A stretch of DNA of 64,000 bases, taken from positions 930,001-994,000 of the forward strand of contig JABVCE010000004.1 of the NCBI GenBank assembly GCA_014905635.1. Reading direction: 5' to 3'. The DNA is from Scenedesmus sp. PABB004. Taxonomy: Eukaryota. The notes beneath the pieces were generated by a model that was not told the origin of the DNA, did no database searches, and saw nothing but the letters and a program-made list of their open reading frames with translations. Shown here in pieces: positions 33,647-63,113 of this stretch (the first letter of the stretch is position 1; the number at the start of each line of letters is the position of its first letter). The position numbers were made by a program, and so were the translations under genes.

Positions 33647-33713
33647 GTTTGAATTCCTGTGTCAGTCAACTCTCGTGCCTGAGAGGAATGGCGCGGCGGG
33701 CGGCAGGCGGCGG

Positions 33714-36832: not shown

Positions 36833-36914
36833 CTTCCAGGATGAGTGAGATATGAGTCAAATTTACGCAACAGCCTGGTGCGGGGCGTCGCACGGTGCGG
36901 GTGGCAGGCAGGTG

Positions 36915-46700: not shown

Positions 46701-49512
46701 GCGCGGCTCGGCGCGAGGCGGGGCTGCCCAACCGCGTGGGCCGAGGCCCGTGGGGCCCCTGGCGGCGGCGCCGCCCACCGCTGGCTGGCGCGCCCGGGCG
46801 GGGCGCGGCCGACGACGGCGCCGGCGCGTGCCGCGTGCGTGCCCCGCAGGGCGTGCGAGCTCAAGGAGCCGGGCGCGCCGGAGCCGCAGTGCTGCCTCTG
46901 CCCGCTCGCGGGCGGCGGGCTGAAGCCGACCACGCTGCCGGGGCTGTGGGCGCACGCGGCCTGCATGCACTGGATTCCAGAGGTCACCTGCCTGCAGCCG
47001 TCGCGGTGCGCGACGCGGCCGCCCGGCGCCGCCGCCGCCGCCGCCGCCGCCGTCGCTGCTTCCACCGCCTCTCTCGCGCGCCGCGCGCGCTGGCGGCCGG
47101 GGCCGGCCGCCGCGGTCGCCGCCGCCGATGCCCGCGCCGCCGCATGGCCGCTGCTGCTGCCCCGCAGCATGGAGCCGATCGATCGCATCCAGCAGATCCA
47201 GAAGGAGCGGTGGGAGCTGCTGTGCTGCATCTGCCGGCAGCGCATGGGCGCCAAGATCCAGTGCAGCGACTGCTACAACGTGCGCCGCGCGCGTGGCGGC
47301 TGCGGCCCAGCGTAGTCGCCCGGCGGCCAGCGCGGCGCGCAGCGGCGCGCAGCGGCGCGCAGCTGCCCAGGAGCGCGCGGCGGCGGCGGCGACCCGCGCG
47401 CGCGCGCCCGCCCCGCAGGCGTACCACCCGCTGTGCGCGCGCCGGCTGGGGCTGCACATGGAGATGGCTGACCCCGCGGTGCCGGACGGCCCGCTGCAGC
47501 TCGTCACGCGCTGCCCCAAGCACTGCACCGTGCAGCCGGACAAGTCGGGTGCGCGGCGTGGACGGCGCGCGGCGGCGCCGGCGCGCCGCCTCGCGGCGGC
47601 TTGCGCGGGGTGTGTCGTCCGCGCGCCGTGCCGCGCGCCCACAGCGGGTCCACCGCCCCGCCCGCACCGCCGCCAGGCATCACGCTCGTGGGCAGCGGCG
47701 AGGCGCTGCGCAGCGGCCGGCCGCGCAAGCGCCCCGCCGACGGCGACGGCGACAACGACGGCAGCGGGCTCTGGAACGCCCAGCCCTTCCGCGCCGCCCG
47801 GCCGCCCGCGCCCATCCCGGCGCCGCCGGGCGGCTGCGCGCGCGCGACGCCGTTTGCGGGCGAGCGCGTGAGCCACGGCACGGGCACCGGCTGCACCACC
47901 ACGGCGGGCTTCTGGATTCCGACGCAGGCCACCGCCGACGCGGTGGCAGCGGGCGAGCTGGCGTGCGTGGGCGCGTCGTCGGACTGGCAGGGCCAGACCG
48001 GCGCCGGTGCAGGCGGCGGCGACGGCGGCGGCGGTGGCGGCGGCGGCGGCGGCGGCAGCAACGCCAGCCGCAAGCGCCGGCTCGCCAACAGCACCGCCGC
48101 CGCGGCGGCCACCTCGGGCAGGCCGCCCAAGCGGGCGCCGGGCGAGGCGCCGCCGCGCGTGGCGCTGGCGCCGCTGCCGGAGGGCGTCGACGGCGAGGGC
48201 CGGCTGGCCATCGTGTGCAACGGCAAGCCGGCCGTCTTCCTGCTGCGCCCGCAGCGCGTGCTGCTGGCGGGCGCGGAGCTGCCGCCGTCGCGGTTTGAGG
48301 CGCTGTGCGGCAAGGGTGACGCCAAGAAGTGGAAGGCCAGCCTCTGGACGGCGGACGCCGACGGCGAGCCCGACGTGTGCATGGCCGACTGGCTCGCGGC
48401 GCGCGGGCTCGACCAGGCGGCGCTCAACGCGCTGTCGGCCAACTGGGCGGCGCACCGCGCGCGCGCCGCGTGGGAGGCGGAGCACGGCAGCGGCGAGCCC
48501 GACGCGGCGGGCGCGGCGGACGGCGCCGGCGGCGCCGTCGCGGCGGACGGCAGCGCGGTCGCCGGCGCGGCCGCCGCGGACGACGGCGCGGAGGTCGCCT
48601 CGCCGCCCGCGCGCGGCGGCGCCGGCGGCAGCGCGCGGAGGGAGGGGACGAGCAGGTGGAGGCGCTGCAGCCGCAGCGCCCGACCACGCACGCAGCAGCC
48701 GGGGCGGCGAGCAGCTCGCCCGAGGAGCCGGCGGCCAAGCGGCAGCGGCTGAGCGGCGGCGGGCCCGGCAGCAGCGTGGCCAGCCCCGCGCCGTCAGCCG
48801 GCGCCGGCGGCAGCCAGCGGGGCAGCCAGCAGCCGTCGCGCGGCAGCACGCCGGCCGGCGGCGCGTCGGCCGGTGACGCCGCGGCGCCCGGCAGCCGCGA
48901 GGGCTCGGCGCACCCCGCCGCCGACGGCGACGGCGTCGCGGCGGCAGCGGCCGGCGCGGCTGCCGACGACGCGGCTGCCGAGCGGCGCCGCAAGGGCCTG
49001 GTGCTGCTGTTCAGGCTTCCCTTCAAAGACATGCCAGAGCGCTACCGCCTGCACCCGGCCTCGCTGCCGCGCGAGGCCGCCGCCGCGTCGGCGGCCGCGC
49101 TGCTGCAGGAGCTGCGCGCGGAGCGGGAGCGCGCCGCGGCCGGCGCGCCGGCGGCAGGGCAGCCCGCCGCCGCGCCGCCGCCGGGGCCGCCCGTCGTCGC
49201 GCCGTCGCCGCCGCCGCCCGAGCCGGCGCCGTCGGCGGCCGGCGCGCCGTGGCTGGCGGTGGGGCGCTGCGTGCGCGTGTTCTGGCCCGACGACGTCGCG
49301 TGGTACGCGGCGGACGTGCGCGGCTTTGACCCCGCGACCCGGCGGCACACGCTGTGGTACCACGCGGATGAGGTCAGTGAGCAGCTCGACCTGGCGGCCG
49401 AGGACGCGGCGGGCCGCGTGCAGTGGCTGCCGCCGACGGACAGCAGCCGCTGGCCGCCGCCGCCGGCGCCGCCCGAGCCGGCCGGCGGCGCGTGGGGCGC
49501 GGCCGCGCCGGC

Positions 49513-49556
<44 letters not shown>

Positions 49557-51916
49557 TTGCGGCGCCGCCGCCCGAGCCGGAGCCGCCGCGGCCCGAGGCG
49601 GTGCCGCCGGGCTTCCCGCGCCTGACCGCGATGCTGCGCGACCCCACGGCGCCCGGCAGCGTCGACCTCGTCGGCCTGGCGGCGTCGGGCGCGCCGCTGC
49701 GGGAGCAGCTGGCGCGCCTGCTGCGCGCGCAGCGGGACGCGCACGCCGTGCACGGCCGCGCGCAGCCGTCGCTCGCGCAGCTGCCGTCGGGCGCGGGCCT
49801 CGTCGGCTGGCGGCTCGGCGTGTTCTGCGCCCCGGCGGGCGTCTTTTACTACGGCCACCTCACCACGTACGACCCTGGCAGCGGGCAGCACGCGATGTGC
49901 TTCGACGACGGCGTCGCGTGCGCCATCTCGCTGCCCGCGGAGCGCCTCGACTGGGTCGCCAGCGGCGGCCAGGCCGCGACTGCGGCGGCGCAGGGCGCGC
50001 ACGCGGCGTACATGCAGCGCCGCGCGGCGGCCGCCGCCGCGCACGCGGCGTGGCAGCAGCGCCGGGCGCTGAGCGCCGCCGCCGCCGGCGGCGGCGGCGA
50101 GCACCTGGCGCGCCTGCTGGCGGCGCAGGTGCAGCAGGTGCAGGGCGAGCTCGCCGCGCTGGGCTGGCGGCAGGGCATGCCGGTGCCGCTGCACGTGCAG
50201 GCGCGCATGGCGCAGCTCGCGGCGCTGCAGACGCAGATCGCGGGCGCCGCCGCTGCCGCGGGCGGCGGCGCGGCGGCGCCGCTGCCGGCGCACGCCGCGC
50301 ACGCCGCGCCGCGCGCCAGCGGCGGCAGCGGCGGCGGCGGTCCGCGCCCCGGCGCGCCGACGCGCGTCGACGTCGTGTGCGGGGCGCACATGGGCCAGTT
50401 TGACTGCCTGCGCTCGGCGGTGTCGCTGCCGTCGGGCGCGGTGGTCAGCCCGACCGAGTTTGAGCGCCTCAGCGGCAAGGGCGCGAGCAAGAAGTGGCGC
50501 GCCACCATCCGCGTGCGCAAGGCCAACGGCCTGCCCGGCATCACCCTCGGCGACTGGCTGCTGCAGCAGGGCTACGACGCGCCCGCGAGCGCCGCGGGCG
50601 GCGGCGCCGCCGCCGCCGGCCGCGGCGGCGGCGGCAGCCTCAACGACATCCGCCGCAGCCAGCAGCAGCGCAAGGCCGCCGCGCAGGCGGGGCTCGGCGG
50701 CGCGCACCGCGCGGGCTGCCTGTGCGTGGCGTGCAAGGCCGCGCGGCGCCGCGGCGGCGCGCCGCCGGCCCCCGCCGCCGCCGCGGCGCCGGCCGCCGCC
50801 GGCGTCGGCTACAAGCCGCTGCCGCTGCGCAGCGCCCCCGGCGGCGCGGCGCCGCTGGGCGAGGCCGCGCGGCGCCGCGCCAAGCTGCTGCCCGCGCTTC
50901 TGCTGGGCAAGCGCGCGTACGTGTCGGCGGTGCCGCACCTCGTGCGCGGGCCGGCGGTGCACAGGCCCTGGCAGCTGCCGGAGAGCCGGGCCTACTCGGC
51001 CGACGAGTGGGAGGCGCGCCAGCGCGGCGGCGGCGGCGCGGCGGCCTCGGACGGCCCCGCCGCGGGCAGCGCCGGCGAGGGCGGCGGCCGCGCGGGCACG
51101 CCCGGCGCGGGCGGCAGCCGGCCGGGCACGCCGGCGGCGTCGGGCGGCGATGGCGGCGGCGGCGGGTGCGGCGACGCCATGGCGGTCGACAGCGCCGCCG
51201 TGGACAGCAACGCGGCGGCGTCCCAGCAGGCGGCCGCGGCGGCGGCGGCGGCGGCGGCGGCGCTGCCGGGCGGGACGCCGCCGCCGGCGGCGGGCGCGGA
51301 CCGCGGCGGCGAGAAGCGCGGCAGCCGCGCGCAGACGCTGCGCGAGCGCCTGCGCGCGTGCCGCGCGCTCGAGCCCCGCCGCATCACGTTTGGCAAGAGC
51401 GGCATCCACGGCTGGGGCGTCTTTGCGCGCGCGGCCATCCCCGCGGACGCGATGGTCACCGAGTTTCGCGGCGAGCTCGTGCGCACGGTGCTCGCGGACG
51501 TGCGCGAGGCGGCGTACCGCAAGCAGGTCTGTGCGCGCCCGCGCCCGGCGGCGGCGGTGGCTGAGCCCCCGCCAACCCGTTCAGCCCCTGAGCCCCGACG
51601 CCGCCGCCGCCGCCGCCCCGCGCCGCCGCTCTGCACACAGGCGCGCGACTGCTACATGTTTCACGCCGCCGACGCGACGGTCATCGACAACACGGGCGCC
51701 GGCAACCACGCGCGCTTCACCAACCACTGCTGCGCGCCCTGCCTCTACGCCAAGCCGCTGGAGCTGGGCGGCGACGTGCACCTCGCCTTCTTCGCGCGCG
51801 CTGACATTGCGCCCGGGCAGGAGCTCACGTTTGACTACCGATTCAAGGAGGAAGACACCGAGCACAAGGTCCTCTGCCACTGCGGCGCGCCCAACTGCAA
51901 GGGCACGCTCAACTGA
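43703..51916 (+). CDS. Trithorax/ATX-like histone H3K4 methyltransferase (PWWP, PHD, HMG-like, SAND, PHD+ePHD, Tudor-like, SET, post-SET)
   Basis: PWWP-like WPAV..VLFYG..YAWV; CCVCD..CDGC..HQSCYG; CCLCP..GGLKPT..WAHAAC; three FExxxG..KKW(K/R) SAND motifs; KSGIHGWGVFA, ARFTNHCCAP, ELTFDYRF, CHCGAPNCKGTLN*. One apparent 1-nt deletion at ~48645. Confidence 0.92.
46497..48658. repeat. Source of a 2.16-kb direct duplication (copy at 60951-63113)
   Basis: Exons and introns are near-identical to the copy, with only a few SNPs and one indel. Confidence 0.95.
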
Positions 51917-52238
51917 AGTTTTGCATCGCGTTTTCGCGCGTCCGGCTCGCGTGGAGCGCCGGCTCGGCGGCAGCGGCGGCGGCAGATGGCCGGCGGCGCG
52001 CGCCGGCACGGCGGCGCGGCGCGGCGCGGCGGGCGGTGTCTAGTCTGTTGCAGCGCGGCGGCGGTAGACCAGCGCGCGTGCGGGCACGCTGCCGCGGCAG
52101 CCCGAGAGGCGGAGAACAAGCCGCGGGCGCCATGCCGGAGTCGGCAACCTCGCGCGCAGGAAGCACATGCCCCCGCGCCGCGCTGGCCAGTTTCCCGCGC
52201 ACTCACGCACGCTCCGCGCCCGTCAGGACGCCGCCAGC

Positions 52239-52490
52239 ATGGGCGAGGGCGGCAGCAGCGCCGCCTGCCCTGCAGGCACCACCATCTGCTGCGCGCTGGA
52301 CGGCCCGCCCAGCTCGCGGGAGGGCCTGCGGTGCCGCTTCCCCGGCGCAGGCGACGTTCCAGCGTCGGTGTGCGGCAGCACCGTGTGCTGCACGCCGCCG
52401 CCGGGCGCGGTGCGCGGCGCCCGCTGCTGCCGCTGCCGCGGGAGGCTGCTGCGGAGGCAGCGGCGGCTGCTCCGCGCTGCTGCTGGCCCC
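52239..52490 (+). pseudogene. Orphan third copy of the Cys-rich exon 1 (MGEGGSSAACPAGTTICC...VCCTPPPGA) plus part of intron 1
   Basis: Homologous to 58388-58635 and to the reverse complement of 55400-55648, but more diverged and without exon 2. Confidence 0.8.
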
Positions 52491-52641
52491 TGGGCGTCAG
52501 CGACGGCAGCCGACCAGCACAGCGGAAGCGCTGCGCCGGGGCCGTTCGATGACACCTGGATTACGTCTTGGCGGTTTGACCAGCGACGTCGCATTTTACA
52601 GCGCTGCCCGCTTCCAACCCCGCCGCTGCGGCCACGCCGGC

Positions 52642-55600
52642 TCATCGCACGAGCGTGAGGCACGGGCCGCAGCGCAGGCCGCCGACATCGTCGCGCAGGA
52701 AGGCGGTGATCGCGGTCGCGGCCGCGGAGCACGCGACCGACGCGACGAAGCACCACCCCAGCCCCGCGGCGGGCGTCCCGCCGGCGTAGGTGTAGAGCGC
52801 ACCGGACGCCAGCGTGCCGGCGAGGCGGCCGCCAGCATTGGCGAAATAGTAGAAGCCCACCTGTGGACATTGCACGGGCGTGGGCCGGGGCGCGAGCGGT
52901 GCCGCCGACCCGCCGCCGCAGGTTGGCGCCCCCCAGGTTGGGCGCGGTGGGGCGCGGCGGCGGAGGGCGGTTCAAGCGCCCACGGCAGCCCACCGTCATG
53001 GCGGCCTTGTCGCCCTGCGCGTAGCGCACGATGAGGTACGAGTGCACCGCCGAGTTGACCGCAAAGAGCACGCAGTACACGACCAGGCCCGAGAGCAGCA
53101 CGCCCGCCATCGCGCGCACGTCGCGGCCCGCAAACACGGGGCTGCCCAGCACCACGGCCGCGAGGTAGGCCGGCGCGAGCGTGAGCAGGCCGTTCCAGAG
53201 CAGCTCCGTGTACTTGTTGGCCGGGCTCTGCCGCAGCGGCTGCAGCACGAGCTGCGGCGTCCAGCTCTGCACCTGGCCGTAGAGGATGATGAAGCCCTGT
53301 CGCGTGGGAGGGAGGTGCGAGGGAGGTGCGAGGGAGGCGAGGGGGTCGTAGGGCGAGGGCGAGCGCGGGCGCGCCGCCGAGGCGCGCGGCCCCGCGCGCG
53401 CGCCGCGCCGCGCCGCGCCGCGCCGGACGCACCGCGAGCACCGCGCCGACGGCGACGCGCTGCCAGCCGAGGCCGTGGGCCGCGTCGCGGAGGAAGAAGG
53501 GCAGCGGCACCTCGAACCAGCAGTCGCGCGAGCCAAAGAGGAAGAAGCGCGCCGCGCTCAGCACGTTGACGTTGTAGCGCTGCCGCAGGAGCTTGGAGAG
53601 CTTCACGTTCTCCTTGCGCGCCCTGCGGCGCAGCGGGGCGGCGCGCTCGGCGCGCGCGGCAGCTGCGGCGCGCCCAGCGCTCGCGGCGCGCCCCGGGCCG
53701 CGCCCCGCTGAGCCCTGCGCCGCGCCGCGCGCGCGCGCCTGCCGAGCTGGTTGGACAGACCCACGACCGCCCACGGCATCGCCGCCGCGACGAGCACGAG
53801 CAGCACGCCCAGCGCAAAGTTGTACGACTGACGCGCGGGCAGGCGGCAGGGAGGCGGCGCGGCGCGCGGCTGGGTGGCCTGCTGCGCCAAGCGAGCGAGC
53901 GGCGCGAGCCCGCGGCGGGGGTGGCCGCGGCCGCGGCCTGCGCCGCGGCCGCAGCAGCCGCGCCGCGTTCGCGACCCCGCGCGCGCGCGCGCCGCACCAG
54001 CGTGAGCGCCGCGGCCCCGATGAAGTACCCCACGCCCTTCATGCTGTTCTTCCAGCCGGTGATGAACGACACGACCTTGAACAGCCGGCTCTGAGAGTGA
54101 AGGACGCGGGGGCGAGCGGGCGCGGCGGGTGGCGGCGGTGAGAGGGCGCGAGGCGGCGCGGAGAAGGGCAGGGGGAAGGGAGGCGGCCGCGCGCCGCGGC
54201 GCGCCTGCTGCTCCTCGGGCGTGACGAGCTTGGTGACCGTCTTGCCGCCGAGCTTGGTGAGGTCCTTTGCCACGCCGCAGAGCATCTGCGCGGCGGTCAC
54301 AAACACGACGCCCTTGGCCTGCTGCGACGGCTGCGCCCACGCGTCCTGCCAGCCGAAGAGCATGCCGATGCCCGCGAGCTGCAGCGTCAGCCCTGCGGCG
54401 GCGGCAGCGCGCGTTCGCGCCCAGCGCGGGCTGCCCGCGCGCGCCGCCGCCCGCGCCGCCGCCCGCCGAGCGCCGAGCGCGCGGCGCGGCGGCGCACCGG
54501 TGAGGAGCGTGGTCTTGATGCCCCAGCGCGCGCCCATGAGTCCGGCAAGCAGGTTGGTCACGACGCCGGCGAGCTCGTAGAAGGAGAACATGATCGCGGT
54601 CTGCCACGCGCTGAACCCAAGGTGGTAGGCGTGCAGCAGCACGATCATGCTGCGCCGCGCCAGAGCGGCGGCGGCCGGCGGCGGCGGGGACGGGCGTCGG
54701 GGGCGTGGCGGGCGGCGCGCGGCTGCCGCGCCGCGCCGCGTGCCCCGCCCCCCGCGGCCGGGACGGGGGGGAGGGGACGGGGCGCTGCCGTGCCGCACCG
54801 CACTGCGCCGTCTGTGGTGGTGAAGAGGAGGTATGAGAGGGAGATGATGACAAAGGGCTTCAGCGCAGAGTACTCGCGCCGCAGGTACCTGGGCGCAGCG
54901 CGGCGAGACGCGCGGCACGCGGCGCCAGGCCGCGCGCGGCGCGGGGCCCAGGGTCGGCGGGGACGGGCGGCAGCGGCAGGGCCGCGGGCGGCGGCCGCGG
55001 CGGAGCGCGCGCGGCACCCGCGTGCGCGCACTCGCTGCGGGTCTCGTCTGCGCGGCGGCCGAAGTCGGCGCCGCCGGTGGCGGCCTGTGCGTCGTCTTTG
55101 GCGCAGCTGGCTGGCGCGGCCTCTTCGAGCAAACTGCGGCAGGTGGTGCGGCTGCGCTTCAGCGCGTGGAGAGCGCCGAGCCTCAGGTGCCTGGCCGCGG
55201 CAGCTCCCCCCCCCTGCCCTCCACTGCCCAGCGGCGCAGCGCGCGCACCTCTGGTGCTGCGCCTCATAGCTGGGGCTCTGATAGATGGCCCGGTCTGCGG
55301 CGTCCACGACCGCGAAGCAGTCCCCTACCTCATCCTGCGCGTGCCGCGGTGGCAGCGCGCGGCGTGAGCTGTGACGGCACCAGCTGCCCCCCCTGGCGCC
55401 GGGGCCAGCAGCAGCGCGGGGCAGCCTCCAGCGGCAGCGGCGCAGCCGCGTCGGCAGCGGCAGCAGCGGGCGCGGCGCACCGCGCCCGGCGGCGGCGTGC
55501 AGCACACGGCGCTGCCGCACACGGACGCTGGCACGTCCCCTGCGCCGGGGAAGCGGCAGCGCAGGCCCTCCCGCGAGCTGGGCGGGGCGTCCAGCGCGCA

Positions 55601-55648
55601 GCAGATGGTGGCGCCCGCGGGGCAGGGGGCGCTGTCAGTCTCGCCCAT
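52642..55648 (-). CDS. arsJ: ArsJ-type organoarsenical (1-arseno-3-phosphoglycerate) efflux MFS permease with Cys-rich N-terminal extension
   Basis: TTTDGAVRMIVLLH, FYELAGVVTNL, GVAKDLTKLGGK, TGWKNSMKGVGYFIG, LSAARFFLFGSRDCWFEV, FAVNSAVHSYLIVRYA, VGFYYFANAGGRLAGTL. 5' exons 55648-55481, 55334-55249 and 55190-55032 splice in frame. TGTAA at 52600-52596. Confidence 0.92.
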
Positions 55649-55956
55649 GCTGCCGGCTGTCTGACCGCGTGGAGGGAGCGGCGAGCTGCCCAGCGCGGCA
55701 GGCGCGCACTGGCCGAGTTCCGAGACCCGGGACGCATATGCCGCCCCCTCGATTCCCGTCAGCCCCGCGACACACCGCGCGACGCCGCTGCCGCCGGACC
55801 GACACCGCGATCGCCCCGCCGCCGCACGCACCGCGCCGTGCCAGCAGTGCCGCCCGCCGTGGCCGCTGCCGCTGCCGCTGCCGCTGCCGCCGCGCCCGCA
55901 CGCGCCGCCATGCCGGTCAGGGTCGCGATCAACGGCTGCGGCCGCATCGGTGAGAT
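55239..55956. repeat. Inverted repeat, left arm (~710 bp): arsJ exons 1-2, bidirectional promoter region, orphan GAPDH exon 1
   Basis: Reverse complement is near-identical to 58095-58797. Confidence 0.95.
55910..55949 (+). pseudogene. Orphan GAPDH exon 1 ([13 protein letters not shown]) with intact GT donor
   Basis: Identical to GAPDH exon 1 at 58141-58102. No further + strand GAPDH exons. Confidence 0.88.
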
Positions 55957-56168
55957 TACAGACGTGGCGTCCGGCCCACGTGTTGAGGCTGCCGCAAGTG
56001 CCGGCGCCTGGTCAACCGCAATGACAGAGTTCAGGGCGCGACGCCGGCGCGCTGGTGCGGAGTTTGGTGTCTTGGTTGTTGGTTGGTTCCACGCGCTGCT
56101 CGCAACCGGGCTGGCTCCACGACCCGCCGCGTCACTGCCACGCGCCGGCGCTCATGTGCCGGGCCGCG

Positions 56169-56211
56169 TCACGCCTGGCCCTTGGCCACGATGGCCGCGA
56201 GGTCGACCATG

Positions 56212-56244
<33 letters not shown>

Positions 56245-58141
56245 GCGTAGATCTTGACCATGCTGCCGTCAATCACCTGCAGAGCGCCGTCCAACGCGGC
56301 GGCGCGGCGGCGCCGGCGGCGTCAGCGCGCGCCTGTCGGCGCCCTCTGTGCGCGAGGAGCGGCGGCCTCACGCGCCTGCCCGCGCGCCCGCCCCACCTGC
56401 GTGCACGCCGCGTCCACGATGGAGCTGCGTGCGTCGTTCACGTAGTCGGTGCTCACCAGCGGCCGCTCCTCAAAGCCCAGGATGCCGCGCAGGTAGGTCG
56501 CCGACGCCTCCTGCGGTGTGGTGTGTGGGTGTGGGTGTGGGTGTGGGTGTGGGTGTGGGTGGAAGCCGCGTGCGTGGCGCGGCGCGGCGGCTGGCGCCGC
56601 GCCGCCGCGCCTTGAGCAGCGCGTTGACCTCCTCCGCGCTGGTGCCGCGCTTGACCTCAAACACGCAGTCCGTGATGGAGCTGTTGGTGAGCGGCACGCG
56701 CACGGCGAGGCCGTTGAGCTTGCCCTTGAGCTCAGGGAAGATCAGGGCGATCGCGGTCGCGCTGCCCGTGCTCGTGGGCGCGAGGTTGACCAGCCCCGAC
56801 CTGCGCGCGCGCGCGCGCGGGGGCGGGCGGGCGGCGGCCGCGAGGTCGGACGGCGGCCGCGCCGTCGCGCCCCCGCGGCTGCGCCCCGCGGCGCGGCGCG
56901 GCGCGGCGGCGCCCCGCGCGCGCGCACCGCGCGCGGCGCAGGTCTGTCTTCTTGGTGTTGGGTGCGTCGACGAGCGTCTGCGTGTTGGTGAGGTTGTGGA
57001 TGGTCGTGATGCAGCCGTGCACGATGCCGAGCTTCTCCTGGATGACCTTGACCACCGGCGCGAGGCAGTTGGTCGTGCACGACGCGGCGGTGACGATGTC
57101 GTCGACCTCAGGCTTGTACAGGTGCTGGCGCCAGTCACGGGCGGGCGGGTGGGCGGCCGGGCGGGTGGCGGCGGGCGGCGGCGGGCAGCGGCGGCCGGCG
57201 TGGGGCGGCGCGGCGGCGGCCGGCCGGCGCGGCGCCACGCGTGCAGCTGCCGATCGGGCGGCGGCGGCGGCGGCGGCGGCGGCGCACGTCGTTCACGCCG
57301 ACCACGACGTTGAGCACGGGGTTTGGGTCCTTGACCGGCGCGCTGACCACGACCTTGCGCACGCCCTTCTCAAAGTATGGCGCCAGCGCGGCGCGCGTGA
57401 GGAAGGCGCCCGTGCACTCCCAGACCTGGTCCAACTTGCCCAGGCCGGCATAGTCCAGCTGCACCGGCGGCAGCGCGGGCGGCAGCGGCGGCGCGGCGGG
57501 GCAGGGTCGCCCGGCGCGGCCGGGCGCGCGGCCGGCGTGGCGCGCGGGGGCAGCGCACGGCGCCGCACCTCGGCCGGCGTCTTGGCCTGGGTGTAGGGGA
57601 TGCGCGCCACGCGCTCGCCAGCCGTGACCACGATGCAGCCGCCCTCCACGGTCACACCGTGCCCCGCCCAGGTGCCTGCGCCGCGCGCCGGCGCCCGGTG
57701 AGCGGCGGTGAGCGGCGGCGAGCGGTCGCGGCTGCGCGAGGCTCGGCGGCAGCGGCGCCCGCGCACCGTGCACGCTGTCAAACTGGATGAGGTACGCGGT
57801 GGACTCGGCGGACGCGAGGTCGTTCAGGTGCACAAACTCAAACTCGCCCGGCCGGTCGAACGCCACCCGGAACGCGAGGCGGCCTGCGGCGCGCGGCGCA
57901 GGTGCGCGGCACGCAGTGCGCGGCGCGCGGTGCGGTCTCAGCGGCGGCGGCATCAGGCGGCGGGGGACTGCACCCTGCTGGCCTGCTGCGGGGCGTGCTG
58001 GTGGTGCTGCTGCCGCTGCTGCTGGTGCCGCCTCTTGCTGCTGCCGGTACTTCGCCCCTGCGCGCGGGATCTGGGCCCTCCACGTGTGTTATGCATCTCA
58101 CCGATGCGGCCGCAGCCGTTGATCGCGACCCTGACCGGCAT
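56169..58141 (-). CDS. ArsJ-associated-type glyceraldehyde-3-phosphate dehydrogenase
   Basis: [91 protein letters not shown]. These resemble the bacterial ArsJ-linked (Gap3-like) clade rather than GapC/GapA. No transit peptide. Confidence 0.93.
56516..56561. repeat. (GTGTGG)n microsatellite in a GAPDH intron
   Basis: About 7 tandem units are visible. Confidence 0.85.
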
Positions 58142-58797
58142 GGCGGCGCGTGCGGCGCGGCGGCAGCGGCAGCCGCCGCGGCGGGCGTCACTGCTGGCAC
58201 GGCGCGGTGCGTGCGGCGGCGGGGCGATCGCGGTGTCGGTCCGGCGGCAGCGGCGTCGCGCGGTGTGTCGCGGGGCTGACGGGAATCGAGGGGGCGGCAT
58301 ATGCGTCCCGGGTCTCGGAACTCGGCCAGTGCGCGCCTGCCGCTGGGCAGCTCGCCGCTCCCTCCACGCGGTCAGACAGCCGGCAGCATGGGCGAGACCG
58401 ACAGCGCCCCCTGCCCCGCGGGCGCCACCATCTGCTGCGCGCTGGACGCCCCGCCCAGCTCGCGGGAGGGCCTGCGCTGCCGCTTCCCCGGCGCAGGGGA
58501 CGTGCCAGCGTCCGTGTGCGGCAGCACCGTGTGCTGCACGCCGCCGCCGGGCGCGGTGCGCCGCGCCCGCTGCTGCCGCTGCCGACGCGGCTGCGCCGCT
58601 GCCGCTGGAGGCTGCCCCGCGCTGCTGCTGGCCCCGGCGCCAGGGGGGGCAGCTGGTGCCGTCACAGCTCACGCCGCGCGCTGCCGCCGCGGCACGCGCA
58701 GGATGAGGTAGGGGACTGCTTCGCGGTCGTGGACGCCGCGGACCGGGCCATCTATCAGAGCCCCAGCTATGAGGCGCAGCACCAGAGGTGCGCGCGC
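58095..58797. repeat. Inverted repeat, right arm: GAPDH exon 1, bidirectional promoter region, PGK exons 1-2
   Basis: Near-identical reverse complement of 55239-55956. Confidence 0.95.
58142..58387. promoter_or_regulatory. Putative bidirectional promoter for GAPDH and PGK (duplicated at 55649-55909 for arsJ)
   Basis: 246-bp gap between divergent ATGs. The promoter role is inferred from position. Confidence 0.7.
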
Positions 58798-60501
58798 CGC
58801 TAGGGGCAGCAGAGGGGGCAGGGGGGCGTGCGGCAGCCGCGCACAGCTCAGCCTCGCCACCGCCGCCGCCGCCTGGCAGGCTCGCACAGGCGGGTGCGTC
58901 CAGCACCCTCGACAGCTGCATTGAGACCCTGCTGTCGCCGCGCCTGGACCTGGCGGCGCTGCCAGCGGGCGCGCTGCGCGGCAAGCGCGTGCTGCTGCGC
59001 GCCGACCTCAACCTGCCGCTCGGGCCGGGCGGCGGCGTGACCGACGCCACGCGGCTCGAGTCGCTGCTGCCGACGCTGCGGCTGCTGCTGGCGGGCGGCG
59101 CGCGCGTCGCGATCGCGTCGCACTTAGGCCGGCCTGAGCCGGCGCGCCAGAGCGAGGAGGAGATGCGTCGGCGCTTCAGCCTCGCGCCCGTCGCCGCGCT
59201 GCTGGAGCGGCTGCTGCCGGCCGGCGCGTTCGCGGGCCTGGCGCCCGACTGCGTCGGCCCCCAGGCCGCCGCGGCCGTCGACGCGCTGCAGCCCGGGCAG
59301 GTGCGGGTGGGCAGCGGCAGCGGCGGCCCGCGCCGCCGACGCCGTTGCCGACGCGCTGCCGCCGCTGCCGACACGCCGCCGCCGCCGCTGCGTCGCGGCA
59401 GGCGTGCCTGCTCGAGAACCTGCGCTTCCACGCGGGCGAGGCGAGCAACGACCCTGCCTTTGCGGCGTCGCTCGCAGCGCTGGGTGACGTGTGCGTGAAC
59501 GACGCGTTCGGCGTCGTCCACCGCGACCAGGCCAGCGTCACGGTGCGCGGCGCGGCCGCCGCCGCGCCGCTGCCGCACGGCCGCCGCTGCGCGACTGCAG
59601 GCGCGGCCGCCGACGCGGCCGCCGCCCGCTTGCCCGCGCGCGCAGGGCGTGCTCTGCCACCTGCGCGGGTACCCAGGGATGCTGCTGCGCGCGGAGCTGC
59701 GCCACCTGCACGGCGTGCGCGCCGCGCCGGCGCGCCCGTTTGCTGTCGTGCTGGGCGGCGCCAAGGTGAAGGACAAGCTCCCCGTGCTGGCCGCCCTGAT
59801 CGCGCAGCAGCACGCGCCCGACCTGCTGCTCGTCGGCGGCCGCATGGCGTTCACCTTCCTCGCCGCCGAGGGCGTCGCCGTGGGCGCGACCCAGGTCGAG
59901 GGCGAGTGGTTGCAGGCCTGCCGCGACATGCGCGGCGCGGCGGCGGCGCGCGGCGTGCGCCTGCTGCTGCCGCGCGACGCGGTCGTCGCGCGGTCGCTGG
60001 ACGACGACCGCGGCTGCTGCACCGTGCCGCTCACGCGCGGCTGCTGCAGCGCCGACGCGCCGTGCGTGCCCGCGGGTGAGCGGCCAGTCACGCGCGCGCG
60101 CTCGCCGGCCGCGCGCGCACGTCGCTCAGCGCGCCCCGCCCCGCCGCGCGCCGCGCCGCGCAGGCTGCCACGGGCTGGACATTGGCCCGGCGAGCGCCGC
60201 CGCGTTTGCCGAGGCGCTGGTGGGCTGCCGCACCGTCTTTTGGAACGGCCCGATGGGCCGCTTCGAGGTGCCCGGCTTTGCCGCGGGCACCGCCGCGCTC
60301 GCGCGCGCCGTGGGCGCCGCGACCGAGGCCGGCGCGACGACCGTGATCGGCGGCGGCGACTCGGTCGCCGCGCTCAACCAGCTGCGCCCGCGGCCGGCGG
60401 TCAGCTTTGTGAGCACCGGCGGCGGCGCCAGCCTGGAGCTCATCCAGGGCCGCCTGCTGCCGGGCCTGCGCGCGCTCGCCGACGACGGCCGCGCAGCGTG
60501 A
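58388..60501 (+). CDS. Atypical phosphoglycerate kinase with Cys-rich N-terminal module and internal CC pairs
   Basis: Exons 58388-58555, 58702-58787 and 58880- splice in frame. [81 protein letters not shown] at 60513. Confidence 0.92.
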
Positions 60502-60586
60502 GCTGCAACGCCTGTAACCCGCTGCGTGCCCACCACCCCGATCTCCCGAGCGCACGCGGCCCAGTCGGCCGTCCCCTCGCTCAAGC

Positions 60587-60931
60587 ATGGCGCTCACCAT
60601 CAGCACCGCCGCGCCGCGCCGGGCCGCCGTCGCCGCGCGGCGCGTGCCGGCGGCGCCGCCGCGCCGCACCGCGGTCGCTGTGCGCGCCTCCGCCTTCCAG
60701 GCGCCCTCCCACGGGGCCGCCCGCGCTATGGCAGGGGCGGCGGCGGTGGCCGCGGCGGCGGCGCTGCTGCTGTCCAGCCCGCCCGCGCTCGCAGCGGTGC
60801 CGTCCCCGGCCGAGGGCGCCACGCGCGAGGCCATCCGCGGCCTCGCGCCCCGCCGCGGCGCCCTGGCACCCGACGTGGCCGGCCAGGAGCGTGAGTGGCG
60901 CACGCTGGCGGCGGGCGCGCGCGCGCTGCAG
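60587..60931 (+). CDS. 5' exon encoding a bipartite chloroplast transit + thylakoid-lumen signal, joined to the duplicated ATX fragment
   Basis: [19 protein letters not shown]...VAVRA, then [20 protein letters not shown] (AxA cleavage motif). Donor is GT at 60891 or GC at 60932. Confidence 0.6.
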
Positions 60932-60950: not shown

Positions 60951-63113
60951 CGCCGCCTCGGTCCCGGACGCCGGCTGACACCGCCGCGCCGCGCGCCAGG
61001 TGCGGTGGGCGGGCGACCGCTGCTGCGTGTGCGACAGCGACGTGGACTACGACTGCGACCGCCTGGTCAGCTGCGACGGCTGCGGGCTGACCATGCACCA
61101 GAGCTGCTACGGCATCCCGGAGCTGCCGGACGAGGACGACATGTGGCTCTGCAGGCGCGGCTCGGCGCGAGGCGGGGCTGCCCAACCGCGCGGGCCGAGG
61201 CCCGTGGGGCCCCTGGCGGCGGCGCCGCCCACCGCTGGCTGGCGCGCCCGGGCGGGGCGCGGCCGACGACGGCGCCGGCGCGTGCCGCGTGCGTGCCCTG
61301 CAGGGCGTGCGAGCTCAAGGAGCCGGGCGCGCCGGAGCCGCAGTGCTGCCTCTGCCCGCTCGCGGGCGGCGGGCTGAAGCCGACCACGCTGCCGGGGCTG
61401 TGGGCGCACGCGGCCTGCATGCACTGGATTCCAGAGGTCACCTGCCTGCAGCCGTCGCGGTGCGCGACGCGGCCGCCCGGCGCCGCCGCCGCCGCCGCCG
61501 CCGCCGTCGCTGCTTCCACCGCCTCTCTCGCGCGCCGCGCGCGCTGGCGGCCGGGGCCGGCCGCCGCGGTCGCCGCCGCCGATGCCCGCGCCGCCGCATG
61601 GCCGCTGCTGCTGCCCCGCAGCATGGAGCCGATCGATCGCATCCAGCAGATCCAGAAGGAGCGGTGGGAGCTGCTGTGCTGCATCTGCCGGCAGCGCATG
61701 GGCGCCAAGATCCAGTGCAGCGACTGCTACAACGTGCGCCGCGCGCGTGGCGGCTGCGGCCCAGCGTAGTCGCCCGGCGGCCAGCGCGGCGCGCAGCGGC
61801 GCGCAGCGGCGCGCAGCTGCCCAGGAGCGCGCGGCGGCGGCGGCGACCCGCGCGCGCGCGCCCGCCCCGCAGGCGTACCACCCGCTGTGCGCGCGCCGGC
61901 TGGGGCTGCACATGGAGATGGCTGACCCCGCGGTGCCGGACGGCCCGCTGCAGCTCGTCACGCGCTGCCCCAAGCACTGCACCGTGCAGCCGGACAAGTC
62001 GGGTGCGCGGCGTGGACGGCGCGCGGCGGCGCCGGCGCGCCGCCTCGCGGCGGCTTGCGCGGGGTGTGTCGTCCGCGCGCCGTGCCGCGCGCCCACAGCG
62101 GGTCCACCGCCCCGCCCGCACCGCCGCCAGGCATCACGCTCGTGGGCAGCGGCGAGGCGCTGCGCAGCGGCCGGCCGCGCAAGCGCCCCGCCGACGGCGA
62201 CGGCGACAACGACGGCAGCGGGCTCTGGAACGCCCAGCCCTTCCGCGCCGCCCGGCCGCCCGCGCCCATCCCGGCGCCGCCGGGCGGCTGCGCGCGCGCG
62301 ACGCCGTTTGCGGGCGAGCGCGTGAGCCACGGCACGGGCACCGGCTGCACCACCACGGCGGGCTTCTGGATTCTGACGCAGGCCACCGCCGACGCGGTGG
62401 CAGCGGGCGAGCTGGCGTGCGTGGGCGCGTCGTCGGACTGGCAGGGCCAGACCGGCGCCGGTGCAGGCGGCGGCGACGGCGGCGGCGGTGGCGGCGGCGG
62501 CGGCGGCGGCAGCAACGCCAGCCGCAAGCGCCGGCTCGCCAACAGCACCGCCGCCGCGGCGGCCACCTCGGGCAGGCCGCCCAAGCGGGCGCCGGGCGAG
62601 GCGCCGCCGCGCGTGGCGCTGGCGCCGCTGCCGGAGGGCGTCGACGGCGAGGGCCGGCTGGCCATCGTGTGCAACGGCAAGCCGGCCGTCTTCCTGCTGC
62701 GCCCGCAGCGCGTGCTGCTGGCGGGCGCGGAGCTGCCGCCCTCGCGGTTTGAGGCGCTGTGCGGCAAGGGTGACGCCAAGAAGTGGAAGGCCAGCCTCTG
62801 GACGGCGGACGCCGACGGCGAGCCCGACGTGTGCATGGCCGACTGGCTCGCGGCGCGCGGGCTCGACCAGGCGGCGCTCAACGCGCTGTCGGCCAACTGG
62901 GCGGCGCACCGCGCGCGCGCCGCGTGGGAGGCGGAGCACGGCGGCGGCGAGCCCGACGCGGCGGGCGCGGCGGACGGCGCCGGCGGCGCCGTCGCGGCGG
63001 ACCGCAGCGCGGTCGCCGGCGCGGCCGCCGCGGACGACGGCGCGGAGGTCGCCTCGCCGCCCGCGCGCGGCGGCGCCGGCGGCAGCGCGCGGAGGGAGGG
63101 GGACGAGCAGGTG
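60951..63113 (+). pseudogene. Partial duplicate of the ATX-like gene (PHD-ePHD-SAND exons with introns)
   Basis: Near-identical to 46497-48658; lacks PWWP and SET. Confidence 0.85.

What the first reader, a model, noticed from the sequence alone, without database searches (positions are those of the whole stretch)
52642..60501. Eukaryotic arsenate-detoxification cluster: arsJ + ArsJ-type GAPDH + dedicated PGK-like gene
Seen: three adjacent intron-containing genes with clear ArsJ, GAPDH and PGK motifs. Established: in bacteria such as Pseudomonas aeruginosa, GAPDH forms 1-arseno-3-phosphoglycerate from arsenate and ArsJ exports it. Inference: this is an operon-like As(V) pathway in an alga, probably of bacterial origin and since intronised. 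The PGK may form, bind or channel the arseno-ester or recycle 3-PG. I recall that comparative work on green-algal gene neighbourhoods noted such a trio, so the gene set itself may not be new. The internal architecture described in the following findings may be.
Basis: partly seen in the sequence, partly recalled or inferred. Interest (0 to 1): 0.88.

Follow-up and report, generated by a model that had tools for sequence, protein, structure and literature searches.

The report
Known algal arsenate-resistance gene trio
Three neighbouring genes of a green alga (a transporter, a GAPDH and a PGK-like enzyme) are the arsenate-detoxification cluster already described and tested in Chlamydomonas; what looks new here is a duplicated promoter-plus-first-exons block inside it.

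Summary
Window 52642-60501 holds three intact, intron-containing genes. They are an ArsJ-like MFS transporter (- strand, 11 exons), an ArsJ-type GAPDH (- strand, 8 exons) and a non-canonical PGK (+ strand). One PGK exon is 100% identical to 'pgk [Scenedesmus sp. PABB004]'.

Foflonker & Blaby-Haas 2020 (PMC7826186) described the ArsJ-GAPDH3-PGK3 neighbourhood in green algae. They showed arsenate-sensitive arsJ and pgk3 mutants in Chlamydomonas. My tests agree:
- The GAPDH groups with bacterial ArsJ-associated GAPDHs, not with type I gap.
- The MFS matches only the ArsJ model.
- The PGK sits in a separate clade and keeps all catalytic motifs.
- No PGK lies beside bacterial gapdh-arsJ pairs (0 of 85 loci).

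The local architecture is apparently new. A ~0.7-kb inverted duplication (97%) flanks the GAPDH body. It carries GAPDH exon 1, the intergenic promoter with a P1BS-like site, and the first two arsJ exons. Those exons encode an N-terminal beta domain conserved in chlorophyte ArsJ. One copy heads arsJ. The other heads PGK3, which has no start codon of its own. No RNA data were available to prove the fusion transcript.

The parts
52642..55648 (-). arsJ-like MFS transporter gene. Exons: 55648-55481, 55334-55249, (55133?)-55032, 54888-54799, 54649-54498, 54392-54205, 54090-53998, 53827-53739, 53622-53433, 53296-52994, 52860-52642 including the stop. The acceptor of exon 3 is uncertain (55190, 55151, 55133 or 55106 all keep the frame).
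   Evidence: The ORF is intact. It is 74% identical to the Scenedesmaceae ArsJ-like proteins P0122 and P0123, 69% to C. reinhardtii P0137, and 43-46% to five annotated bacterial ArsJ.
52596..52600 (-). TGTAA poly(A) signal of arsJ, 42 nt after the stop codon.
55249..55648 (-). arsJ exons 1-2 and intron 1. They encode the N-terminal all-beta, cysteine-bearing domain (motifs GLRCRF, DVPA, VCC.PP).
   Evidence: tblastn of P0122 and P0123 N-termini gave E 4e-9 and 1e-8. The module is conserved in chlorophyte ArsJ N-termini. The AF2 model of P0123 has six strands at residues 14-74. The ortholog row in the PMC7826186 supplement carries Gene3D 2.60.40 / IPR013783.
55239..55956 (.). Inverted-repeat arm 1. 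In - strand order it holds the arsJ exon 2 donor, exon 2, intron 1, exon 1 and the intergenic promoter, followed by an unused + strand copy of GAPDH exon 1.
   Evidence: 718 nt, 97.2% identical to arm 2. Metagenome contigs of runs X1 and X2 bridge its right edge at 55956/55957.
55910..55949 (+). Orphan copy of GAPDH exon 1 ([13 protein letters not shown]) with its GTGAGA donor. It points into the 3' end of GAPDH.
   Evidence: The 40 nt of the exon are identical to the real exon 1.
55734..55741 (.). P1BS-like palindrome GCATATGC in the arm 1 promoter.
   Evidence: The window has 3 matches to GNATATNC against 0.75 expected, and 2 of them lie in the two cassette copies.
55956..55960 (-). TGTAA poly(A) signal of GAPDH. 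It straddles the edge of arm 1.
56169..58141 (-). ArsJ-type GAPDH (GAPDH3). Exons: 58141-58102, 57883-57767, 57675-57569, 57458-57288, 57124-56928, 56800-56611, 56510-56397, 56276-56169 including the stop.
   Evidence: It is 347 aa and keeps the catalytic SCTTNC motif. Orthologs pass the NF033735 cut-off.
58095..58797 (.). Inverted-repeat arm 2. It holds the real GAPDH exon 1 (- strand), the divergent promoter, and a second copy of arsJ exons 1-2 (+ strand) with the exon 2 donor.
   Evidence: A contig of run X2 bridges its right edge at 58797/58798.
58297..58304 (.). P1BS-like palindrome GCATATGC in the GAPDH/PGK divergent promoter.
58388..60501 (+). PGK3-type gene. Captured exons: 58388-58555 and 58702-58787 (copies of arsJ exons 1-2). 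PGK exons: 58880-59300, 59402-59542, 59646-60075, 60164-60501 including the stop.
   Evidence: The model equals residues 1-527 of deposited P0001. There is no in-frame ATG between 58773 and the essential N-terminal PGK motifs.
60513..60517 (+). TGTAA poly(A) signal of PGK, 12 nt after the stop codon.
52206..52510 (+). Third, older and partial copy of the arsJ 5' module (5'UTR end, exon 1 with ATG and donor, start of intron 1). It is inverted relative to arm 1, lies beyond the arsJ poly(A) site, and no downstream exon is evident.
   Evidence: It is about 87% identical to both arms, and 82.5% at protein level.

Best explanation
This is the Scenedesmus sp. PABB004 copy of the green-algal ArsJ-GAPDH3-PGK3 arsenate-resistance neighbourhood.

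Proposed mechanism (inferred from the bacterial system and the Chlamydomonas mutants, not shown here):
1. GAPDH3 uses arsenate in place of phosphate at its acyl-enzyme step and makes the labile 1-arseno-3-phosphoglycerate.
2. The ArsJ-like MFS permease exports this compound.
3. PGK3 is a catalytically intact but divergent PGK. It converts 3-phosphoglycerate plus ATP back to 1,3-bisphosphoglycerate. This keeps GAPDH3 supplied with substrate or acyl donor and stops 3-PGA from piling up.

Local wiring, shown at sequence level: two near-identical copies of one bidirectional promoter block head the genes. One copy drives arsJ. The other drives GAPDH3 on one side and PGK3 on the other.

Inferred from the sequence: PGK3 is translated from the copied arsJ start codon and therefore carries ArsJ's N-terminal beta domain. 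The arrangement fits one inversion of the GAPDH body whose staggered left break duplicated the promoter block.

The confidence of 0.85 is for the identity of the cluster and its pathway. The PGK3 fusion on its own is about 0.5.
For: Identity
- A PGK exon is 100% identical to 'pgk [Scenedesmus sp. PABB004]'.

GAPDH
- Orthologs P0252 (84% identical to the window protein) and C. reinhardtii Cre07.g354200 score 491 and 459 bits on NF033735. The cut-off is 450.
- The best 25 plasmid tblastn hits are 57-60% identical. 22 of them are annotated as ArsJ-associated GAPDH. Type I gap genes reach at most 46.5%.
- In the ML tree of 24 rows, the window protein and 13 algal GAPDH3 are monophyletic (100/100). 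They join 5 bacterial ArsJ-linked GAPDHs (100/99), apart from 4 gap/gapA genes and epd.

ArsJ
- NF033734 is the only NCBIfam hit, and it covers profile positions 3-390 of 392.
- The window model is 43-46% identical to 5 annotated bacterial ArsJ.

PGK
- The Pfam PGK match is full length, 390 bits.
- The motifs RADLN, SHLGRP, LENLRF, NDAFG..HR, GGAKV.DK, GLDIGP, WNGPMG.FE, GGGDS and STGGGASLE are all kept when aligned to solved PGKs.
- It falls in a separate clade of 10 rows against 37 (SH-aLRT 99).

Literature
- PMC7826186 (passages and supplement rows read) describes the same trio in the same order as C. reinhardtii (Cre07.g354150, 354200, 354250).
- That paper reports that arsJ and pgk3 insertion mutants are arsenate-sensitive.

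Architecture
- define the repeat.
- Both novel junctions are bridged by independent metagenome contigs.
- Each gene has its own TGTAA signal.

Regulation hint
- A P1BS-like site sits in both promoter copies.
- The C. reinhardtii ArsJ ortholog (MFT22) rises 2.7-3.9-fold in the stronger PSR1-overexpressing line, with r = 0.96 against PSR1 (PMC10413257, Table 2 read).
Against: - There is no functional or expression data for this organism. No RNA run holds the locus.
- ArsJ-like orthologs score 370-380 bits, below NCBI's 400-bit equivalog cut-off.
- The window's own spliced proteins could not be sent to the HMM libraries. Family scores therefore rest on exon pieces and on orthologs.
- My GAPDH tree has no eukaryotic GapA or GapC. 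These appear only through bit scores to solved structures: 266-276 bits, against 323 for the best bacterial structure.
- I could not place the named C. reinhardtii PGK3 in my PGK tree, because cluster names were unavailable.
- The enzymatic role of PGK3 is unknown even in Chlamydomonas, as PMC7826186 itself says.
- The PGK N-terminal fusion rests on a deposited gene prediction that is wrong at its 3' end.
Confidence: 0.85

Rival explanations
1. The inverted repeat is real, but the PGK3 fusion is not. On this view the copied arsJ exons upstream of PGK3 are dead duplicates or only a 5' leader, and PGK3 is made without the ArsJ N-domain or is not made at all in this strain.
For: - None of the three closest PGK3 orthologs (P0005, P0006, P0007) has the extension.
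- Among the 269 PGK-type proteins stored, only P0001 has the motif.
- The same deposited model is chimeric at its 3' end.
- Frame compatibility at a splice has a 1-in-3 chance.
- The three coding differences between the arms (2 synonymous, 1 not) carry no information about selection.
Against: - There is no in-frame ATG before the essential RADLN and SHLGRP motifs other than the copied one. The 82 nt between the repeat and the acceptor hold no ATG at all.
- The copy keeps its ATG, an open frame, both GTGCGC donors and a good acceptor at 58879/58880.
- All PGK catalytic motifs are intact. This argues that the gene is in use.
Confidence: 0.4
2. The trio is mainly a phosphate-starvation (PSR1-regulon) module that handles phosphorylated three-carbon intermediates. 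On this view arsenate sensitivity of mutants is a side effect of arsenate entering through induced phosphate transporters.
For: - A P1BS-like GCATATGC sits in both promoter copies.
- The C. reinhardtii ortholog of ArsJ is listed among P-transport genes induced by PSR1 overexpression.
- The deposited names of two of the genes are glycolytic.
Against: - GAPDH and the MFS belong to the bacterial pair that sits inside ars operons beside arsC, arsH, ACR3 and arsR.
- 66 of 80 metagenomic relatives of the GAPDH have arsJ beside them.
- The Chlamydomonas mutants are arsenate-sensitive.
- Co-induction with phosphate uptake is what an arsenate defence would need, so this observation fits both readings.
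Confidence: 0.08
3. It is an ordinary glycolysis or carbon-export neighbourhood, made of GAPDH, PGK and a metabolite transporter, with no link to arsenic.
For: The deposited name 'pgk' and the generic GAPDH and MFS Pfam domains.
Against: - The GAPDH is in the ArsJ-associated clade.
- The PGK is outside the canonical clade.
- The MFS hits only the ArsJ model.
- This reading was considered and rejected in PMC7826186.
Confidence: 0.03
4. The inverted and direct repeats in and around the cluster are assembly artefacts of a very GC-rich, repeat-rich genome.
For: - The window shows several near-identical local repeats, including a 2.16-kb direct repeat at 99.7% that flanks the cluster.
- No long read or contig spanning a whole arm was seen.
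Against: - The arms differ by substitutions and by two indels, so they are not collapsed copies.
- Short contigs from two freshwater metagenome runs bridge the two junctions that only the rearranged form has. These are 55917-56287 and 55915-56243 for one junction, and 58731-58906 for the other.
Confidence: 0.1

Closest known systems
ArsJ-GAPDH3-PGK3 neighbourhood of Chlamydomonas reinhardtii (Cre07.g354150 / g354200 / g354250; Foflonker & Blaby-Haas 2020, PMC7826186)
   Same: The three families are the same and the gene order is the same. The GAPDH is orthologous and ArsJ is 69% identical. It is the same inferred pathway, backed by arsenate-sensitive arsJ and pgk3 mutants.
   Different: The organism differs. 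Scenedesmus is not among the ten genomes of that study's table. This locus has a 0.7-kb inverted duplication of the promoter and 5' exons, a third partial copy, and a predicted ArsJ N-domain on PGK3. The paper's main text does not contain the words cysteine, inverted, bidirectional or Scenedesmus. Its Fig. 2B with the gene models could not be seen.
Bacterial gapdh-arsJ pair of ars operons (Pseudomonas aeruginosa type; Chen et al. 2016, known to me only as cited in PMC7826186)
   Same: GAPDH and MFS are of the same families. In bacteria they are adjacent and co-directional in 5 of 5 plasmid loci and co-located in 66 of 80 metagenome loci.
   Different: The bacterial pairs have no introns, no PGK (0 of 85 loci) and no N-terminal beta domain on ArsJ (bacterial ArsJ is 402-420 aa, against about 559 aa here). 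They are embedded among arsC, arsH, ACR3 and arsR, none of which was found in 40-64 kb of this window.
Pteris vittata GAPC1 + OCT4 arsenate tolerance (Cai et al. 2019, known to me only as cited in PMC7826186)
   Same: The logic is the same: a GAPDH arsenylates and a transporter moves the product.
   Different: According to PMC7826186 the plant proteins belong to other families, namely plant GAPC and OCT4, so the resemblance is convergent.
Inversions flanked by inverted duplications of the breakpoint ('staggered-break' inversions described in Drosophila; recalled, no call)
   Same: The inverted segment (the GAPDH body) is flanked by inverted copies of one breakpoint region. An older 0.3-kb pair likewise flanks the arsJ body.
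   Different: The mechanism was not tested here. Both repeat edges lie within about 10 nt of a splice donor, which that model does not predict.

Membership tests
ArsJ-associated GAPDH (NCBIfam NF033735) | Whole-protein score at or above the curated cut-off of 450 bits. | tested here: met
   The test was met by proxy. Ortholog P0252 (84% identical to the window protein) scores 491.2 and C. reinhardtii P0304 scores 458.7. Among window exon pieces NF033735 is the top hit in 4 of 5. The spliced window protein itself could not be submitted.
ArsJ-associated GAPDH (NCBIfam NF033735) | Groups with bacterial arsJ-linked GAPDHs rather than with type I gap or epd. | tested here: met
   ML tree of 24 rows, clade support 100/99. 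Identity to this class is 54-60%, against at most 46.5% to type I gap. No eukaryotic GapA or GapC was in the tree.
ArsJ-associated GAPDH (NCBIfam NF033735) | Lies next to an arsJ gene. | tested here: met
   The GAPDH stop is at 56169 and the arsJ start is at 55648, about 0.5 kb apart.
ArsJ-associated GAPDH (NCBIfam NF033735) | Forms 1-arseno-3-phosphoglycerate from arsenate. | not testable with these tools
   This needs biochemistry. The catalytic SCTTNC motif is present.
ArsJ organoarsenical efflux MFS (NCBIfam NF033734) | Best and full-length match to the ArsJ model. | tested here: met
   NF033734 is the only NCBIfam hit for 4 orthologs, covering profile positions 3-390 of 392. All four matching window pieces hit only this model.
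ArsJ organoarsenical efflux MFS (NCBIfam NF033734) | Score at or above the curated equivalog cut-off of 400 bits. | tested here: not met
   Orthologs score 370.6-380.0 bits. The protein is therefore best called ArsJ-like, a eukaryotic ortholog group, rather than an NCBI equivalog.
ArsJ organoarsenical efflux MFS (NCBIfam NF033734) | Confers arsenate resistance together with GAPDH. | not testable with these tools
   The only evidence is the arsenate-sensitive C. reinhardtii insertion mutant reported in PMC7826186.
Phosphoglycerate kinase (Pfam PF00162) | Full-length domain with substrate and nucleotide motifs kept. | tested here: met
   390.5 bits over profile positions 6-379 of 379. The motifs align with solved PGKs.
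PGK3 subfamily (Foflonker & Blaby-Haas 2020) | Clade distinct from canonical PGK. | tested here: met
   A 10-row clade separates from 37 other PGKs with SH-aLRT 99. I gave the tree 47 of the 269 stored PGK-type proteins.
PGK3 subfamily (Foflonker & Blaby-Haas 2020) | Same clade as the named C. reinhardtii PGK3 (Cre07.g354250). | tested here: inconclusive
The assignment rests on synteny and on the paper's statement that chlorophycean PGK3 lies beside GAPDH3 and ArsJ.
PGK3 subfamily (Foflonker & Blaby-Haas 2020) | Lies next to GAPDH3 and ArsJ in a chlorophycean alga. | tested here: met
   PGK3 is divergent from GAPDH across a 246-nt intergenic stretch.

The most novel reading that the evidence does not exclude
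A recent inversion copied a 0.7-kb cassette made of a bidirectional, P1BS-bearing promoter, GAPDH exon 1 and arsJ exons 1-2, each with its splice donor.

As a result all three genes of the arsenate cluster now hang on two copies of one promoter. PGK3 also lost its own start and is made as a fusion with the Ig-like N-terminal domain that chlorophyte ArsJ proteins carry.

That shared domain would bring PGK3 and the transporter to the same partner or place, for instance GAPDH3, so that the very labile arseno-ester is handed on directly.

The conserved cysteines of this domain, and the CC...PC insertion that marks the PGK3 clade, could be metalloid- or redox-sensing sites.
Probability: 0.3. Interest if true: 0.6.

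Novelty: new member of a known kind. Interest (0 to 1): 0.38.

Why it matters
The gene set itself adds one more species to a published and partly validated pathway, so that part is ordinary.

The locus could still be useful in three ways:
1. It is a natural experiment in how a eukaryotic gene cluster becomes co-regulated. A duplicated promoter-plus-5'-exon cassette gives two genes the same control region and the same N-terminal domain.
2. It draws attention to two undescribed protein features that could be tested in Chlamydomonas. One is an N-terminal beta domain on algal ArsJ. The other is a tri-cysteine insertion that marks the PGK3 clade.
3. It offers a concrete, testable link, through a P1BS-like site, between phosphate-starvation signalling and arsenate defence.

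Tried and rejected
Steps that led nowhere
- No whole genome is held for the window. Paralogs such as canonical PGK, GapA and GapC, and other ars genes, could not be sought.
- No RNA holder was listed for the locus, so no splice or expression evidence exists either way.
- The scan of genome contigs with an algal ArsJ alignment found nothing, because the patterns were too alga-specific. I used plasmid records and metagenome loci instead.
- The metagenome scan with GAPDH3 returned only intron-free, bacterial-type loci. Gene order in related algae could not be compared.
- The protein-atlas search gave no usable hit for the ArsJ N-domain. Pfam gave none either.
- Complex prediction (two copies of GAPDH3 with the ArsJ N-domain) was not folded because of a pairing rule. 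This gives no information about binding.
- The search of earlier findings returned nothing.
- Supplementary Data 1 of PMC10413257 is not held. It could show whether the GAPDH3 and PGK3 orthologs also respond to PSR1.

Ideas considered and dropped
- The third copy of arsJ exon 1 might lie in the arsJ 3'UTR and pair with the 5' end of the mRNA. The TGTAA signal at 52600 places it beyond the transcript end.
- The C-terminal 160 residues of deposited P0001 might belong to PGK. The stop at 60499-60501, the TGTAA at 60513 and the orthologs' ends all speak against this.
- A second ars cluster might lie one repeat period upstream. There are no PGK, GAPDH or MFS hits in 38-46 kb.

Full report
WHAT IS THERE

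The window is about 79% G+C throughout, so every frame is open for long stretches. Genes had to be found by homology.

Stop-free pieces of the - strand between 52645 and 55158 match only the ArsJ model NF033734. Pieces between 56172 and 58088 (- strand) match GAPDH models, with the ArsJ-associated model NF033735 best in 4 of 5. Pieces between 58773 and 60501 (+ strand) match PGK.

One PGK exon is 100% identical to a deposited protein named 'pgk [Scenedesmus sp. PABB004]' (P0001). The window therefore comes from that chlorophycean alga or a near-identical strain.

GENE MODELS

I used orthologs as guides and joined exons by coordinates in scripts.
- GAPDH has 8 exons and 347 aa, with the catalytic SCTTNC motif. 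It is 84-85% identical to ortholog P0252.
- arsJ has 11 exons and about 559 aa. It is 74% identical to two Scenedesmaceae proteins, 69% to the C. reinhardtii protein, and 43-46% to five annotated bacterial ArsJ. The acceptor of its exon 3 is ambiguous.
- The six-exon PGK model reproduces residues 1-527 of P0001 exactly and ends at the stop 60499-60501.

P0001 then runs on into the next gene, which I judge a chimeric annotation. The orthologs end where the stop codon lies, and a TGTAA follows 12 nt later.

TGTAA occurs only 8 times on both strands of the window. Three of these follow the three stop codons, 42 nt after arsJ, about 210 nt after GAPDH and 12 nt after PGK. That this motif is the green-algal poly(A) signal is my recollection.

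Nineteen of the 22 introns are GT-AG and three are GC-AG.

FAMILY TESTS

GAPDH
- Orthologs pass NCBI's cut-off for 'ArsJ-associated GAPDH' with 491 and 459 bits against 450.
- A tblastn of P0252 against 72,556 plasmid records gave 275 records with a match. The best 25 are 57-60% identical and 22 of them are annotated as ArsJ-associated GAPDH.
- In a listing spread over the whole ranking, that class ends at about 54% identity and 'type I' gap genes begin at 46.5%.
- In a maximum-likelihood tree of 24 rows, the window protein and 13 algal GAPDH3 form one clade (100/100). The internal order of that clade follows algal classes. The clade joins five bacterial arsJ-linked GAPDHs (100/99), away from four gap/gapA genes and an epd.
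- No eukaryotic GapA or GapC could be fetched for the tree. Solved GapA, GapB and GapC1 score 266-276 bits with P0252, against 323 for the best bacterial structure.

ArsJ
- Four orthologs hit only NF033734 over its whole length, with 371-380 bits. This is just under the 400-bit equivalog cut-off.

PGK
- Pfam gives 390 bits over the whole domain.
- All substrate and nucleotide motifs are kept in the alignment to solved PGKs.
- In a tree of 47 rows, the window protein lies in a 10-row clade (SH-aLRT 99), apart from 37 other PGKs that include cyanobacterial, oomycete and plant-type ones.

WHAT IS ALREADY KNOWN

Foflonker & Blaby-Haas 2020 (PMC7826186; I read passages and supplement rows) compared ten green-algal genomes and described exactly this neighbourhood. 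It consists of ArsJ, 'GAPDH3' and an alga-specific PGK: PGK3 in Chlorophyceae and PGK4A in Mamiellophyceae.

In C. reinhardtii the genes are Cre07.g354150 (ArsJ), g354200 (GAPDH3) and g354250 (PGK3), which is the order seen here. In Volvox the numbering gives GAPDH3, PGK, ArsJ, so the internal order has changed elsewhere too.

Insertion mutants of arsJ and pgk3 were severely impaired on arsenate. The authors propose that GAPDH3 makes 1-arseno-3-phosphoglycerate, that ArsJ exports it, and that PGK3 recycles 3-PGA. They state that the enzymatic role of PGK3 is unknown.

A search for PGK3 + arsenate + Chlamydomonas found only this paper. Scenedesmus is not among their ten genomes.

The gene set is therefore known, and this locus is a further member.

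BACTERIAL COMPARISON

- In five annotated plasmid loci (Leptolyngbya, Pseudomonas, Paracoccus, Bosea, Pseudoalteromonas), the GAPDH gene lies directly upstream of arsJ. In 4 of the 5 the pair lies among ars genes (arsR, ACR3, arsH, arsC); the Paracoccus locus lists none nearby.
- No PGK is annotated within 7 kb in any of the five. PLSDB's gene table is incomplete.
- Of the 80 best metagenome loci that encode a relative of algal GAPDH3 (all uninterrupted matches, 52-63% identical), 66 also encode an ArsJ homolog and none encodes a PGK. The criteria were tblastn E <= 1e-10 and at least 150 aligned residues.

This agrees with the paper's view that GAPDH and ArsJ came as a bacterial unit and that PGK was recruited in algae.

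LOCAL ARCHITECTURE

An inverted repeat flanks the GAPDH body. The arms are 55239-55956 and 58095-58797, 718 nt at 97.2% identity.

The repeat contains, in order:
- GAPDH exon 1 with its GTGAGA donor;
- the 246-nt intergenic region;
- two exons that in arm 1 are the first two exons of arsJ, ending about 10 nt after the donor of exon 2.

Arm 1 therefore heads arsJ and carries an unused copy of GAPDH exon 1 that points into the 3' end of GAPDH. The GAPDH poly(A) signal straddles that edge. Arm 2 holds the real GAPDH exon 1 and, on the other strand, a copy of arsJ exons 1-2 that points into PGK.

The arms differ by 9 substitutions and two indels in the core. Three of the substitutions are in coding parts, two synonymous and one not.

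A third, older and partial copy (52206-52510, about 87%) lies beyond the arsJ poly(A) site, inverted relative to arm 1. Each of the two - strand gene bodies is thus flanked by inverted copies of its own 5' end.

One inversion of [cassette + GAPDH body], with a staggered break across the cassette, would turn 'arsJ <- promoter -> GAPDH -> PGK' into the present order. That such inversions leave inverted duplications is recalled from Drosophila work and was not tested.

The two junctions that only the rearranged form has are each bridged by short contigs from freshwater metagenome runs, with 40-67 nt on the shorter side:
- X1 55917-56287 and X2 55915-56243 for one junction;
- X2 58731-58906 for the other.

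I therefore think an assembly artefact unlikely. The other two edges were not bridged.

THE COPIED EXONS ENCODE A REAL DOMAIN

The N-termini of Tetradesmus obliquus ArsJ (P0123) and a relative (P0122) align to arsJ exon 1 with E 1e-8 and 4e-9.

Of the 120 ArsJ-type proteins, 62 have at least 40 residues before the first MFS motif. Thirteen of these match a strict pattern for the module, and about 25 show it by eye (V.C ... GL[RK]CR[FW] ... VPA ... V.C.PP ... Y.V). They include Chlamydomonas, Volvox, Gonium, Pleodorina, Astrephomene, Scenedesmaceae and trebouxiophytes.

Pfam finds nothing there. An AlphaFold model of P0123 built from 26 sequences gives six strands at residues 14-74 (pLDDT 59-85), a disordered linker at residues 79-134, and then the MFS core.

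The supplement of PMC7826186 lists IPR013783 / Gene3D 2.60.40 for the ArsJ row. I recall this as the immunoglobulin-like fold. The paper's text does not discuss it.

DOES PGK3 CARRY THIS DOMAIN HERE?

Evidence for:
- The deposited model says so.
- The PGK reading frame has no ATG from 58773 until after the RADLN and SHLGRP motifs. The 82 nt between the repeat and the acceptor at 58879/58880 hold no ATG.
- The copy keeps its ATG, its frame and its donors, and the splice is in frame.
- The residues that align with the orthologs' N-terminal helix are still present, but without a Met.

Evidence against:
- None of the orthologs P0005, P0006 and P0007 has the extension. Only 1 of 269 stored PGK-type proteins does.
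- The same deposited model is wrong at its 3' end.
- An in-frame splice has a 1-in-3 chance.
- No RNA data exist.

I put the fusion at about 0.55, given that the repeat is real.

OTHER FEATURES

The PGK3 clade is marked by an insertion of about 9 residues just before GLDIGP that carries CC...PC. Eight of the 10 clade members have it and none of the other 37 rows does. Scenedesmaceae have three further cysteines there.

The promoter cassette holds the palindrome GCATATGC, a match to GNATATNC. I recall that pattern as the P1BS site of PHR1/PSR1-type factors. There are 3 matches in the window against 0.75 expected from shuffles, and two of them are the two cassette copies, which count as one event.

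In C. reinhardtii the ArsJ ortholog Cre07.g354150 is listed as MFT22. It rose 3.0-, 3.9- and 2.7-fold in the stronger PSR1-overexpressing line and correlated with PSR1 at r = 0.96 (PMC10413257, Table 2 read). The supplement that might show the other two genes is not held.

Arsenate enters through phosphate transporters, so co-induction with the phosphate-starvation response would make sense. This is inference.

VERDICT

The apparently new elements are specific to this locus or were not noted before:
- the inversion-type duplication of a promoter-plus-5'-exon cassette;
- the probable transfer of ArsJ's N-terminal domain to PGK3;
- the PGK3 cysteine insertion;
- the P1BS-like site.

All four rest on sequence alone.

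Noticed in passing
46497-48658 and 60951-63113: A 2163-nt direct repeat at 99.7% identity, spaced 14,454 nt apart. The PHD / zf-HC5HC2H part of the PHD-SET gene upstream of the cluster (PHD 46525-46920; SET within 48320-51913, + strand) is repeated just downstream of PGK3. The ars cluster therefore lies between near-identical direct repeats. This could be a substrate for copy-number change, or it could be an assembly problem.
   Followed up: partly
55950-55960 and 58788-58797: Both edges of the inverted duplication lie within about 10 nt after a 5' splice site: 7 nt after the GAPDH exon 1 donor and about 10 nt after the arsJ exon 2 donor. By my rough estimate this has a chance of about 0.004 if the breaks fell at random within the two introns. 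It is unexplained. Microhomology at the GTGCGC donor consensus is one idea.
   Followed up: no
59990-60075 (PGK exon 5); proteins P0006, P0007, P0363, P0366, P0367, P0369, P0383: The PGK3-type clade carries a conserved insertion with CC...PC just before the GLDIGP adenine-pocket loop. The Scenedesmaceae sequences have six cysteines in 24 residues there. Canonical PGKs lack the insertion.
   Followed up: partly
60566-60892 (+): A small ORF starting MALTISTAAPRR..., which looks like a transit-peptide start, follows PGK3. In the deposited protein P0001 it is fused to PGK by an intron that removes the PGK stop codon. This is probably a separate gene.
   Followed up: partly
whole window: TGTAA occurs only 6 times on the + strand and 2 times on the - strand in 64 kb of 79% G+C DNA. 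This makes it a sharp marker of gene ends here. No TGTAA follows the SET gene stop (51916) on the + strand before 60513.
   Followed up: no
54204, 53738 (arsJ) and 56610 (GAPDH): Three of the 22 introns use GC donors (GCGCGC or GCGCGG). The GAPDH intron at 56610-56511 contains no GT at all and holds a (CACAC)n-like run.
   Followed up: no
33696-34472 = 36897-37674 (99.1%); 32510-33154 ~ 35822-36425 (87%); 3961-4408 inverted with 7810-8263 (94%): Further local segmental duplications occur elsewhere in the window. The genome region seems prone to them.
   Followed up: no
proteins P0177, P0190, P0199, P0223: ArsJ-like MFS proteins at 51-53% identity over the queried 111-residue segment are also annotated in hemichordates (Saccoglossus, Ptychodera, Glandiceps) and in a haptophyte (Pavlovales). 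The family is thus wider in eukaryotes than green algae alone.
   Followed up: no
L011-L013 (metagenome loci): The three closest uninterrupted relatives of algal GAPDH3 (62-63% identical) have no ArsJ homolog in 4.6-15.6 kb of locus, unlike 66 of the other 77 loci. Their origin is unknown.
   Followed up: no
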